This document shows, piece after piece, positions 3,819 to 7,881 of a stretch of DNA of 64,000 nucleotides. The DNA is from Sporopachydermia quercuum (Eukaryota). Positions within the stretch are counted from its first letter, which is position 1, and every line of letters starts with the position of its first letter. The stretch is taken from NCBI GenBank assembly GCA_001599295.1, contig BCGN01000001.1, positions 1,798,001 through 1,862,000 on the forward strand, in the 5' to 3' direction. The notes below the pieces were generated by a model. That model was given only the letters and a program-made list of their open reading frames with translations, searched no databases and was not told the DNA's origin. Both the position numbers and the translations under genes were made by a program.

Positions 3819-5196
3819 TCAAAATTTGAACACTTGATCCTTACTATAACCAAGTTCTGCTAAAATGCCAGTAAGTTCACCTTGATCGGTGGGAGAAACT
3901 TTCAATCCTGATAACGCTTGATAAAATGGTGGAGGTCCGCACACAAAGATTTTAGCCTTCTCTGTGGATGGATCAAAAATTGTTTCTTTCAAAAATTCTT
4001 TAGTGACAAACCCAGTGTGACCTTTCCACTCAGGTGAAGTTGTTTTATCAACGAAATACTCCACTCTCAATTGTTTTGGATATAAGAAGGCTAGCCTATC
4101 NAGTTCTTTCTTGAGAATGATATCTTCTTCAGATTTATTACCATAAATCAATGTTATCTTGCCTTTATCTAAAGGATTGAATAAAATACCTTGCATCAAT
4201 TGATCTGATTATACCGTTAGTAAATCAATTCGACAAGAAGCTATATATATAATTGTTCCATTGCCCTGCTGTGCTCATATAAGAACTATTATGATTCCTC
4301 TAGACTTACAAAGTGGAGTAATACCTGCACCAGCACCAATTAATACAGTATCAAGAATTTCACCAACTTTCCATGGATATTTTCTAATAGGGCCTTGGAA
4401 TGCTAATGTATCATCAGGCTTCATATTACTTATATGCTTCGAAACCACGCCGTTTGGATACTCCTTCACAACTAGTTCTAAATATCCAACCTTGTTAAAC
4501 TCAGACACTGGTGTGTAAGGTCGGATTATGTCTTTACCATCAGGGCCAGGAATTTTAACAAATAAGGCTGATGCTAATTGTAGTCCAGCGACATGTTTCT
4601 TGGTAGGTAATGCAAACCTATATCTTTTGGTATTGTGAGTAATAGGTTCTGCTGTCTCAAGCTATGGTATATGTGTTCGTTAGTAAGGCGTTTGATTGGA
4701 GTGTAGGCAATACCATGAGCCAAAGCCTACGAAGATAAAGGTTTTGAGAGTCCCCAAAACTAGAGCTTAGTATTACAAGAATGAATTGGCATCAACTGTC
4801 TCGCAAAATCATCCTTTGTATTCTTCTTTCTTACCTTCAAATCAATCCATTCATTAGCATTTGTAAATGTCTTAGGTCCTAATGCATGATCAGCCAGGCT
4901 GAAGTTTCTAATCAAATGACGCTTTATTAATTGTTAATAAAACACAAGAATACTTAAAATTAAAACGACAAAAAAAATAACTATGAGAATAGTGTTTAAA
5001 TAAATAACTGTTTCTCTTTATCGATTCTGTGATAATATATGAATGAATAATCTATCACCTCTTTTCATCCATAAACCAGTACTCATCATATTAATCATCA
5101 TAGTCAATCGTATCTTTTCCACTTCAGTCAAAGTAACCAACTTACATCAATCAATGACAATCTATTAGTAGCGTTCGATTTAGTAGCAAGAAACAT
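3819..5196 (-). CDS. MCR1: NADH-cytochrome b5 reductase, MCR1 type, 291-aa PTS2-bearing isoform (exons 5196-5146, 4921-4835, 4661-4310, 4204-3819)
   Basis: FAD motif RPYTP, NADH motifs GAGITPL|YQ and FVCGPP, C-terminal LAELGYSKDQVFKF; introns 4309-4205 (GTAAGT..TACTAAC..CAG), 4834-4662 (GTAAGA..TACTAAC..TAG), 5145-4922 (GTAAGT..TATTAAC..AAG). Family call strong, first-exon choice inferred. Confidence 0.85.
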
Positions 5197-5674
5197 TGTA
5201 CCTTCTTTATCTTCACTATAATCACCAATTCAAATCGTTATTACTGTTCTATAAGTATATTATAGTATACTACTAGTATCTTTCAATCTATCTCTAATGG
5301 CTATCAATAGAATCAATATATGTAGTTAATCAATAACAAGAATAATAAATAAGATGACTCCATATATTCAAAATAAAAAGCAGACATTTCATTCGACTGA
5401 AAACAAAATCTCTATTTCGATGAAACCGGAGCAATCTACTCGTTCCGTTCATTCCTCATTTATGCCTCATAATATTCCCACCCCTTATTCCTTCCATGGC
5501 TTGTTTAGCTTCGTAAGAGTATGGTGAGGCTGGAGGTGATGGACTAGGGAACAACGGAAGTGAAATGTAGGTCATTAATAAATGATTGCTTATTAGATGA
5601 GATGAATCTTGTAAAAAAAGAACTTTTGTTTGTAGATAGCAATAGATACGGAAATTAAGTATATTAGCACTTAC

Positions 5675-5691
5675 GTTTTGGAATTTGTCAT
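5675..5691 (-). CDS. Alternative upstream first exon of the b5 reductase (MTNSKT), phase 2
   Basis: acaATG ACA AAT TCC AAA AC|GTAAGT; in frame with the TAG acceptor at 4908 (275-aa product) or the TAG acceptor at 5162. Confidence 0.55.
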
Positions 5692-5926: not shown

Positions 5927-5932
5927 CCTCGG
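5927..5932 (-). promoter_or_regulatory. CCGAGG (FarA/Ctf1/Por1-type fatty-acid response element) upstream of the b5 reductase
   Basis: CCTCGG on +, about 235 bp upstream of the ATG at 5691; single hexamer match only. Confidence 0.3.
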
Positions 5933-6707
5933 AAGAAACTCCCATATTGGTGTCAAAACCAAATGAATGGTGTGATTCTACATAAATACATACTTTGAAA
6001 GATGTTATCTCCGTCGAATATATTGATTACATACTTATAGAGGTAGTTGAAACAAAAAAATCCATTATTTAACATAGAATAATAGTTGCTATTTCGTTGA
6101 ATTCATTAGATTGAAATAATACAAAGCTTCAATGAACTACTTGGCAATCAATAGCCGATGATCACACTGATAGTTAGGTATGAAGCATGGAGAGATTGTG
6201 GGAAGGAAAGTATGCGATACTATGAGCTAACATTAATATGATATACGCGCTGTATTTTTTTATGAAAGTCCAATAATAAGACTTTGATATTTTAATTTAT
6301 ATTTGTTTTGTCAAAGAGTATTAGTTCGGAGTCTTACGAAGCTGTGAGAAGAATGAAGAAGAGAATCGCCAATTATCACATCAAACCTATCAATCGGCAA
6401 GGGGTGTGCATATTACTGCATGTTCTGCATATGATCTAACTTAATTCGTCTTCCCTCTAGCACTTTTCTATTTTTATTGAGACAACGAAATAATTTCTGT
6501 TTATCATAAATATTATAGAAAAACAATCCTAGTATCAACTCGCTTGGGAACATCAACAAGTTTATTGATCAAATCAATTACAATCCTGTCATTATTTATT
6601 TAGAGCAAGCCTGACTTGCTCTTTCTCTGTTTCCGTTCCCTTCTCATTAATCTACGGAGCCTGTCATTTCTCTACTAATACTTCATAGCTATCACATCTA
6701 ATAAACA

Positions 6708-7881
6708 ATGTCACGAAATAAAGAAAAATCACAGTCTATGCTGTATAGATTCAAAGAACAACAAGCTGCTGAACTAGGTATTGTTGATATCGGAAGAACT
6801 CAAAGACCACGAAGAGTGGAAACTGTCGATAGTGTTGCAATGTGTGAGAAATGGAGAGGACAAGTTATAAGAGATATTAGCTGGAAAGTAACCAAGATTC
6901 AAGATGGTATGTTATTAGATTATGCTATTATATCAAGTATATACATTGGAAAGAAGAAGAAAAGAAGCATTTGATGATTAAAAAGACGTTAGAATTAAAG
7001 CGAGAAATATCTTGTTTTTACTGTTCATCTATTTGCTGTTTGGTTGTTCAACTCTTTGAATGTTGTAAAAAATAATTAGCTCCACTACTCAACTGATCTA
7101 GTCTTTCTACTGTTGCTTTAACATCGATTTCTTTCTGGACAAAAGCTTTTATTTCACTTATAACAATTTAATCAATATTCCTTACTAACTGGAATCTAGA
7201 ATCACTCACTGATTTTCAAATCCGAGATCTCAATGATGAAATCAATAAACTAATGAGAGAGAAACATGCATGGGAAATACGGATAAAAGATCTAGGTGGG
7301 CCAAATTATATTGTAAGTAGCTACTTATGCTGTTATTCGGATATCTATGATATTTCTGTCTTTTTATTCATGCATTCACATATGAAATTATTCATGGTTA
7401 CTAACACCAGNCTCGCGGTAAATAGAGATTTGCAAGACACACTATTGAAAATGGTGATCCGGTTCCAATGGTCAAAGGGTATCGTTATTTCGGTAGAGCA
7501 AAAGAACTTCCTGGAGTGAAAGAAATACTGGAAGCTCAGAAACAGAAGTTAAAAGATCAATTAAATGGAGAATACAGTAAAGAGTCTGAAAAGAAAAAGC
7601 AATTATCGTTCATGAAATATAAGCTAGACGCTGAGTATTTTGGTTTTGACGAAGAGGATGATGAAATAGATGATGAACTGGATAAAGGAGAAGAAATGAA
7701 ACTTTCAAGAAGAAGGTATGAAATGGTGTCAACGCAGTATTCACAGTCAAAATTAACAGGTTTTGATATATCAACGTTTGAACCAATACAGGAAGATGTT
7801 TGTAAGATACCGAATCAAAGTGACGTAGAGAGATGGTTGGTAGAAAGAGAGAAAAAAAAGCTAAGAGATAGACTATTATGA
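6708..7881 (+). CDS. ISY1: Pre-mRNA splicing factor Isy1 (exons 6708-6906, 7200-7312, 7426-7881)
   Basis: [57 protein letters not shown]; introns 6907-7199 (GTATGT..TACTAAC..TAG) and 7313-7425 (GTAAGT..TACTAAC..TAG). Confidence 0.93.

What the first reader, a model, noticed from the sequence alone, without database searches (positions are those of the whole stretch)
4908..5691. Two first exons frame-locked to different acceptors: a splice switch that removes the PTS2
Seen: an upstream exon (ATG 5691, MTNSK-AC|GTAAGT, phase 2) is in frame with the distal TAG at 4908 (MTNSKT-NFSLADH, no PTS2) and with a TAG at 5162 inside the PTS2 exon (MTNSKT-LSLIDRHL, which swaps the critical Arg for Thr). 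Cross-pairings stop at once: upstream exon to the AAG gives ACC GTC ATT TGA; PTS2 exon to the distal TAG gives AAA CTT CAG CCT GGC TGA. Both ATGs have A at -3. Inference: promoter choice plus 3' splice-site choice partitions one enzyme between cytosol and peroxisome, with wrong combinations removed by NMD.
Basis: partly seen in the sequence, partly recalled or inferred. Interest (0 to 1): 0.72.

Follow-up and report, generated by a model that had tools for sequence, protein, structure and literature searches.

The report
Peroxisomal b5 reductase, optional upstream exon
A yeast gene for a soluble copy of the enzyme NADH-cytochrome b5 reductase carries a peroxisome-targeting signal split across an intron, and a second, upstream start exon may make a signal-free version for the cytosol, which is plausible but unproven without RNA data.

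Summary
All coordinates and frames check out. The gene is a 291-aa MCR1-like NADH-cytochrome b5 reductase with no membrane anchor; the genome also has an ordinary anchored MCR1. The PTS2 exon and its AAG acceptor are well supported: a 42%-identical paralog has a PTS2 split by a phase-0 intron at the same place, and a Tortispora protein is also anchorless with a PTS2. The upstream 17-nt exon is about even odds to better. For it: best start context in the interval, 2-10% chance in shuffles, and GND1 in this genome has a similar nested PTS2-exon layout. Against it: no RNA or orthologue evidence, other candidate micro-exons, and a competing branch point. The 'frame lock' is weaker than stated. It is one 1-in-3 fact: any phase-2 exon fits the AG of any AGN codon, so 4907, 4898, 5161 and 5215 are the same coincidence. 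The 5161 acceptor is unlikely, because its AG abuts the branch point. The PTS2 N-terminus also resembles a mitochondrial presequence. Best model: two promoters, passive AAG/TAG competition, NMD of mismatched products. This is a new variant of known fungal dual targeting (GND1, MDH, APE2).

The parts
5675..5691 (-). Candidate upstream first exon U (ATG + 17 nt, phase 2)
   Evidence: start context best of 10 ATGs scored in the interval, 96th percentile of all ATGs; use unproven
5669..5674 (-). GTAAGT donor of U (putative 767-nt intron to 4908)
   Evidence: consensus donor, but such hexamers occur about once per 1.9 kb per strand
5400..5600 (-). C-rich to G-rich compositional switch centred near 5501; putative internal promoter or long-intron signature
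   Evidence: highest value (45) in 262 kb sampled; GND1 long intron 38, ZWF1 847-nt intron 49, 40 ordinary upstream regions at most 35; no specific pairing
5301..5331 (-). Rival branch-like GATTAAC (5331-5325) and TAG (5303-5301); splicing U here makes a 7-codon uORF
   Evidence: inference
5216..5243 (-). Rival non-consensus branch TAATAAC and TAG acceptor; U joined here is in frame with exon P and keeps the PTS2
5146..5196 (-). First exon P (17 codons, phase 0) with PTS2 residues 1-6; preceded by 164 nt without ATG
   Evidence: same split in paralog L003
5162..5164 (-).
   Evidence: AG at distance 0 from TACTAAT; such AGs skipped
4922..5145 (-). 224-nt phase-0 intron splitting the PTS2: GTAAGT, branch TATTAAC 4939-4933, AAG acceptor 9 nt later
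   Evidence: TATTAAC also serves a predicted intron in L043; AAG is first AG in 5 of 32 candidate introns
4908..4910 (-). Distal TAG acceptor, 23 nt after the branch site, inside codons Ile21-Arg22; in frame only with phase-2 exons
   Evidence: distance near the top of the 5-25 nt range
4835..4921 (-). Exon 2: PTS2 residues 7-9, an R-x-F-S motif (residues 22-25) and the start of the FAD domain
4310..4661 (-). Exon 3, FAD-binding domain
   Evidence: PF00970 E 5e-26; 173-nt intron before it is at the same place as in L003
3819..4204 (-). Exon 4, NAD-binding domain and stop; no PTS1
   Evidence: PF00175 E 8e-18
5927..5932 (.). CCTCGG motif (FarA/Por1-type fatty-acid response site, recalled), upstream of both ATGs
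   Evidence: also upstream of 3 of 4 thiolase genes; background 26 in 262 kb, so weak

Best explanation
The gene encodes a soluble, anchorless MCR1-like NADH-cytochrome b5 reductase. Shown from sequence and homology: exon P spliced to the AAG gives a 291-aa protein with an intron-split PTS2. Inferred: exon P has its own promoter inside the long first intron of an upstream promoter. Transcripts from the upstream promoter splice the 17-nt exon U to the distal TAG and give a 275-aa enzyme with the whole catalytic body and no targeting signal (cytosolic). The two acceptors share one branch site and compete passively. The first AG is a weak AAG, the second a consensus TAG. Each promoter yields one productive and one frameshifted product, and NMD probably removes the latter. 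Likely role, inferred: NADH-dependent one-electron reduction (erythroascorbyl radical, or a cytochrome b5-type partner) in the peroxisome matrix and the cytosol, beside the mitochondrial Mcr1.
For: Pfam domains and a clean four-exon ORF. Separate anchored MCR1-, CBR1- and PGA3-like genes exist (names recalled); no hydrophobic anchor here (max KD17 0.23 vs 1.38-2.58). Paralog L003 has R-L-x5-Q-L split by a phase-0 intron after residue 6 and shares the next intron. Tortispora ODV89665 is anchorless with a PTS2. PTS2 by chance in 0.27% of 20000 shuffles and 0 of 44 background N-termini. For U: 96th-percentile start context and 111 nt without ATG; 37-199 of 2000 shuffles; 4 of the 7 other good-context micro-exons in 224 kb look like real first exons. 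GND1 has a predicted 14-nt upstream exon, a 1435-nt intron and a nested PTS2 exon. The compositional switch is shared with both introns over 800 nt that were examined. UPF1 present.
Against: No RNA or orthologue evidence for U. The frame match is one 1-in-3 event. Three other candidate micro-exons lie in the interval. No excess of long donor-branch distances in 262 kb. A branch-like GATTAAC at 5331 could capture U first. The paralog tolerates an unused out-of-frame TAG 13 nt after its AAG and shows only a weak upstream candidate (73rd percentile). The 2.0 context threshold was set after seeing U's score of 2.32. Switch values of 38-40 also arise at coding positions (3 cases), and the four 333-425-nt introns checked lack it. 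GND1's upstream exon is itself a prediction, and its two exons share one acceptor. PTS2 position X4 is Asp, outside the extended consensus.
Confidence: 0.5

Rival explanations
1. Single organellar isoform. Exon P to AAG is the only coding route. U is a chance ATG-GTAAGT, or a 5' UTR/uORF exon spliced at the GATTAAC-TAG site (5301), and the distal TAG is only an Ile-Arg codon pair.
For: 27 of 39 A(-3) ATG-donor elements in 224 kb of non-ORF DNA lack a strong branch site nearby; paralog's AAG works with a TAG 13 nt downstream; long introns are rare; GATTAAC fits the YTRAY branch consensus (recalled) as well as the gene's own TATTAAC.
Against: U has the best start context in the interval; matching GND1 layout; strongest compositional switch of the sample lies between U and P.
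Confidence: 0.35
2. U is a constitutive first exon that splices to the TAG at 5216, so exon P is an internal exon and the protein keeps its PTS2.
For: Join is in frame and the 19 nt before ATG 5196 are open; branch-to-AG distance of 19 nt is in range.
Against: Branch TAATAAC lacks the conserved pyrimidine (consensus recalled); ATG 5196 has its own 93rd-percentile context and 164 nt without ATG; in L003 and Tortispora the PTS2 starts within 10 residues of the Met.
Confidence: 0.08
3. The exon-P N-terminus acts partly or mainly as a mitochondrial matrix presequence, cleaved near residue 24, so the switch is cytosol versus mitochondrion (or both organelles). This is independent of whether U is used.
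For: 4 basic and 1 acidic residue in 26, moment 0.59, and R-x-F-S at 22-25, like the genome's presequence-type thiolase and MDH N-termini; motif in 1.3% of shuffles and 2 of 44 background N-termini, both presequence-like (cleavage motif recalled). A PTS2 point mutation can create a mitochondrial signal (PMC4585086 passage). PTS2 X4 is Asp.
Against: The homologous L003 N-terminus is acidic and Pro-rich with a full-consensus PTS2 at the same splice position, so the ancestral signal is a PTS2.
Confidence: 0.3
4. Active coupling: the 5' exon sets the acceptor (U to TAG, P to AAG) through exon contacts with U5 loop 1, so little RNA is wasted.
For: U5 loop 1 contacts both exons at step 2 and exon sequences were proposed to affect splice-site use (PMC4381068 passages); the two exon ends differ.
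Against: No data here; passive competition plus NMD explains the same sequence.
Confidence: 0.12
5. The TAG at 5162 is a real third route that inactivates the PTS2 by replacing its Arg.
For: In frame with U and preceded by TACTAAT.
Against: AG at distance 0 from the branch motif is skipped in the homology-fixed last intron of L003; the in-frame fit follows from the AGA codon and recurs in GND1. One predicted intron (L014) scored best at distance 0, with an in-frame CAG 6 nt on as an equal option.
Confidence: 0.07

Closest known systems
GND1 (6-phosphogluconate dehydrogenase) PTS2 isoforms of Candida albicans, Lipomyces, Cyberlindnera (alternative 3' sites) and Yarrowia (exon skipping); PMC7491326 section 10
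   Same: One gene, a PTS2-bearing and a PTS2-free isoform made at the RNA level near the 5' end
   Different: There the PTS2 is included or skipped downstream of one first exon. Here the PTS2 is split by the intron, sits in its own ATG exon, and the two first exons differ in phase and need different acceptors 14 nt apart.
APE2 of Saccharomycetaceae (start site and AUG inside the intron; PMC7491326 passage) and A. nidulans NADP-isocitrate dehydrogenase (alternative start sites; PMC3798809 table)
   Same: Nested transcription start decides whether a targeting signal is present
   Different: In APE2 the signal is in the upstream exon and the intronic start has no donor of its own in the passage read; here the nested exon carries the signal and is spliced.
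Yarrowia and Aspergillus MDH alternative 3' sites (AAG/UAG, 4 nt apart) creating a PTS1; PMC7491326 passages
   Same: Closely spaced proximal AAG and distal UAG compete and decide peroxisomal targeting
   Different: C-terminal PTS1, one donor, both products productive; here N-terminal PTS2, two donors, half of the pairings frameshifted.
Mcr1, mitochondrial NADH-cytochrome b5 reductase (outer membrane and a second submitochondrial form; erythroascorbyl radical reductase; via PMC4105880)
   Same: Same two Pfam domains, 51% identity to the genome's own MCR1-like gene
   Different: No signal anchor; PTS2 instead; three introns against none in the anchored copy.
Ustilago Pgd1 PTS2 isoform by non-AUG initiation (PMC7214817)
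   Same: Cryptic N-terminal PTS2 extension on a redox enzyme
   Different: Translation-level mechanism, no splicing.

Membership tests
NADH-cytochrome b5 reductase (MCR1-like) | FAD_binding_6 plus NAD_binding_1 domains | tested here: met
NADH-cytochrome b5 reductase (MCR1-like) | R-x-Y-T-P, G-x-G-I-T-P, C-G-P-P motifs and the Asp for NADH preference (motifs recalled) | tested here: met
   alignment
Canonical mitochondrial Mcr1 | N-terminal hydrophobic signal anchor | tested here: not met
   max KD17 0.23 vs 1.38 for L002 and 1.93 for P0010
PTS2 cargo | (R/K)(L/V/I)-x5-(H/Q)(L/A) near the N-terminus with hydrophobic X3 | tested here: met
   residues 12-20, X3 Ile
PTS2 cargo | Extended consensus X4 = L/S/G/A | tested here: not met
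   X4 is Asp; L003, Tortispora, GND1 and thiolase signals meet it
PTS2 cargo | Pex7-dependent import in this organism | not tested
   PEX7 was not searched; pathway inferred from PTS2 motifs in a thiolase and GND1
PTS2-bearing MCR1 subfamily (window gene, L003, Tortispora) | One clade | tested here: inconclusive
   quick 17-row tree leaves them unresolved; shared intron positions link only the two genes of this genome
Dual targeting by alternative first exon / 3' splice site | Both isoforms exist as transcripts | not testable with these tools
   no RNA run listed
Dual targeting by alternative first exon / 3' splice site | Conservation of both routes in relatives | tested here: inconclusive
   no orthologue found: best identity 53% and 62-73% on short segments; 0 of 47 distinct loci had a PTS2
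Dual targeting by alternative first exon / 3' splice site | Both isoforms keep the catalytic body in frame | tested here: met

The most novel reading that the evidence does not exclude
Both first exons are used and the upstream exon itself biases the spliceosome to the distal TAG while exon P favours the AAG, giving a donor-coupled acceptor choice in a budding yeast. The 14 extra bases complete an overlapping PTS2 and presequence signal, so one gene of an undescribed anchorless MCR1 subfamily supplies cytosol, peroxisome and possibly mitochondrial matrix.
Probability: 0.1. Interest if true: 0.75.

Novelty: new variant of a known kind. Interest (0 to 1): 0.45.

Why it matters
The firmer part is a PTS2-bearing, anchorless Mcr1-like reductase in at least two yeast lineages. 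Three literature searches (listings only, open-access library) showed no description of one. It suggests an NADH-consuming, antioxidant-recycling or b5-linked activity inside fungal peroxisomes and gives a candidate for how beta-oxidation NADH is reoxidised there. If the upstream exon is used, the gene is a compact natural test of whether 3' splice-site choice depends on the 5' exon or is left to NMD. It would also show nested first exons as a recurring design for peroxisomal isoforms in this genome (GND1 too).

Tried and rejected
Orthologues: protein searches and two metagenome scans (no relative, 80 loci) gave ordinary MCR1 relatives. Loose PTS2 matches: 4 of 154 proteins (only P0059 anchorless), 1 of 119, 0 of 47 distinct loci out of 80 fetched, 68 with a tblastn hit. 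Structured RNA in the long intron: folding z 0.36 and 1.10, half-shuffle z 0.42; Rfam gave one sub-threshold snoRNA match at E 0.076; rejected. The U region has no second copy in the genome. The de novo intron predictor was too noisy and was replaced by a strong-motif census. The 57-row tree had a mis-joined L003 row and an unfinished search, so the corrected 17-row tree was used. The sigma-70 scan does not apply to a eukaryote and was ignored. The ESM Atlas (run on P0059) only confirmed the family. A peroxisomal cytochrome b5 partner was not examined: 16 b5-domain matches exist but their sequences were not seen. The GPD1, ZWF1, MDH and PK loci gave no second nested PTS2 exon.

Full report
Observation. 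The window is from an intron-bearing fungal genome (16.4 Mb, 15 contigs), probably an early-branching budding yeast (inference from MCR1 similarity and intron motifs).

The gene. Exons 5196-5146, 4921-4835, 4661-4310 and 4204-3819 give 291 aa without internal stop, with FAD_binding_6 and NAD_binding_1 domains. The genome holds five relatives: an intronless anchored MCR1-like gene (L002, 51% identical), CBR1- and PGA3-like genes (L004, L005; names recalled), this gene, and a second intron-bearing paralog (L003, 42%). This protein has no hydrophobic anchor (max KD17 0.23, against 1.38-2.58 for the anchored ones).

The PTS2 route is well supported. L003 carries R-L-x5-Q-L split by a phase-0 intron after the sixth residue, exactly as here, and shares the next intron position. 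Tortispora caseinolytica ODV89665 is a 271-aa anchorless relative with an N-terminal PTS2. Such proteins are rare: loose matches in 4 of 154 (only this one anchorless), 1 of 119 and 0 of 47 distinct metagenome loci. A common origin of all three is not shown; the quick 17-row tree is unresolved. The motif arises in 0.27% of 20000 shuffles and 0 of 44 background N-termini. The AAG lies 9 nt after a TATTAAC branch site. In 32 candidate introns with strong motifs the first AG at least 5 nt past the branch was TAG 16, CAG 11, AAG 5, at 5-25 nt (not all validated). Caveats: X4 of this PTS2 is Asp, outside the extended consensus, PEX7 was not searched, and the N-terminus also has presequence features (4 basic, 1 acidic, R-x-F-S at 22-25; cleavage motif recalled).

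The frame lock is one fact. The acceptors are 14 nt apart, so an exon in frame with one is out of frame with the other. A phase-2 exon fits the AG of any AGN codon of the reading frame. That accounts for 4907 (Arg22), 4898 (Ser25), 5161 (the PTS2 Arg) and 5215 (a Ser codon upstream of ATG 5196, which keeps the PTS2). The GND1 PTS2 Arg codon gives the same apparent swap. The 5161 site has its AG directly after TACTAAT; an AG at that distance is skipped in L003's homology-fixed last intron. The distal TAG needs no purpose either: L003's second intron must use an AAG although an out-of-frame TAG follows 13 nt later.

Is exon U real? For: its ATG scores best of the 10 scored in the interval (96th percentile of all ATGs, 71st of 51 presumed true starts), with 111 nt free of ATG (11% in background). 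A phase-2 element appears in 37, 72 or 199 of 2000 shuffles depending on donor strictness. Of 8 distinct good-context micro-exons in 224 kb of non-ORF DNA, U is one, 4 join long ORFs through a strong branch site (products recognised from memory), and 3 are unresolved (threshold set after seeing U's score; output was cut in the middle). GND1 of this genome has a predicted 14-nt phase-2 upstream exon (97th-percentile context), a 1435-nt intron, and inside it a second ATG exon with R-V-x5-H-L and its own donor, both joining one TAG. A C-rich to G-rich switch between U and P scores 45, the highest in 262 kb; the GND1 and 847-nt ZWF1 introns score 38 and 49, and 40 ordinary upstream regions at most 35. 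UPF1 is present.

Against: no RNA run was listed (no evidence) and no orthologue was found. Three more ATG-donor candidates lie upstream, one (5945, phase 0) able to use the AAG. 27 of 39 looser elements lack a nearby strong branch site. Donor-branch distances peak at 50-100 nt (33 against 5.2 expected) with no excess beyond 150 nt. A branch-like GATTAAC at 5331 with a TAG at 5301 would turn U into a uORF exon. The switch also reaches 38-40 at three coding positions, is absent from four 333-425-nt introns, shows no specific pairing, and may simply mark exon P's promoter. L003 has only a weak upstream candidate. GND1's upstream exon is also a prediction, and an ATG inside its nested exon could supply a signal-free form. 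I put use of U at about 0.65 and the full signal-free route at about 0.5.

Mechanism. Shown: gene structure, PTS2 motif, frames. Inferred: two promoters; in upstream transcripts the cap-proximal donor is favoured (recalled principle); the weak first AAG and the consensus TAG compete for one branch site; P-to-AAG gives the targeted 291-aa form, U-to-TAG a 275-aa cytosolic form, and the other two pairings carry early stops and are probably NMD substrates. Donor-dependent acceptor choice through U5 loop 1 is possible but not needed. The enzyme likely passes electrons from NADH to a one-electron acceptor; yeast Mcr1 keeps erythroascorbate reduced, so a peroxisomal copy could recycle antioxidant and reoxidise NADH (inference).

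Comparison. RNA-level PTS2 switching is known for GND1 and PTS1 switching by AAG/UAG sites for MDH; intronic start sites for APE2; alternative start sites for A. nidulans isocitrate dehydrogenase; non-AUG PTS2 isoforms in Ustilago. New here would be the cargo, the intron-split signal, and two first exons of different phase using different acceptors. Searches for a PTS2-bearing or peroxisomal b5 reductase and for first-exon PTS2 switches showed no such report in their listings; the library lacks most subscription papers.

Papers seen: PMC7491326, passages and section 10 (its supplementary figure 6, not read, may show a GND layout like the one here); PMC7214817, first fifth of the text; PMC3798809, PMC4585086, PMC4105880, PMC4381068, passages only. 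Strijbis 2012, Kabran 2012, Petriv 2004, Lee 2001 and Szewczyk 2001 are known only through those texts.

Verdict. Observation confirmed; PTS2-bearing anchorless MCR1 paralog about 0.9; two-first-exon switch about 0.5; 5161 route about 0.07; active coupling about 0.12. New variant of a known kind, interest 0.45.

Noticed in passing
L031:208-1656 (minus strand; G000:C1 near 1349200-1350660): GND1 has a predicted 14-nt upstream exon, a 1435-nt intron and a nested ATG exon with a PTS2 and its own phase-2 donor, both joining one acceptor: a cleaner nested-first-exon switch than the finding itself.
   Followed up: partly
L003:1056-2310: Second anchorless MCR1 paralog, five exons, PTS2 split at the same position; 30-nt internal exon entered through an AAG acceptor; weak ATG-only upstream exon candidate at L024:4947.
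   Followed up: yes
L033:657-1503: ZWF1 has an 847-nt internal intron with a strong C-rich to G-rich switch; purpose unexplained (internal promoter or long-intron signature).
   Followed up: partly
L032 minus strand, ORF from position 1336 of the reversed locus: The single GPD1-like gene has a basic N-terminus with a degenerate PTS2-like nonapeptide ending H-T, and a later Met; possible dual start.
   Followed up: no
L027-L030 upstream regions; window 5927-5932: CCTCGG (FarA/Por1-type site, recalled) lies upstream of 3 of 4 thiolase genes and once upstream of this gene; background about 0.1 per kb.
   Followed up: partly
window 6705-7881 (+): Divergent neighbour is an ISY1 splicing-factor gene (PF06246) interrupted by introns; a splicing factor with introns next to this locus.
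   Followed up: no
window 5928-5945 (-): Another ATG micro-exon (A at -3, phase 0, GTAAGA donor) that would join the AAG in frame without the PTS2.
   Followed up: partly
P0012 / P0156 (Lipomyces): Lipomyces MCR1 is annotated as 263-aa (no anchor) or 319-aa forms differing by the start Met; may be annotation choice or a real soluble isoform.
   Followed up: no
G000:C6:1202864 and C12:10711: Two pyruvate kinase matches; the C12 copy starts at profile position 24, possibly intron-split or partial.
   Followed up: no
window 5023-5076 (-): Sub-threshold Rfam match to a C/D snoRNA family (E 0.076) inside the PTS2-splitting intron, in an ATGA-repeat-like stretch; probably chance.
   Followed up: partly
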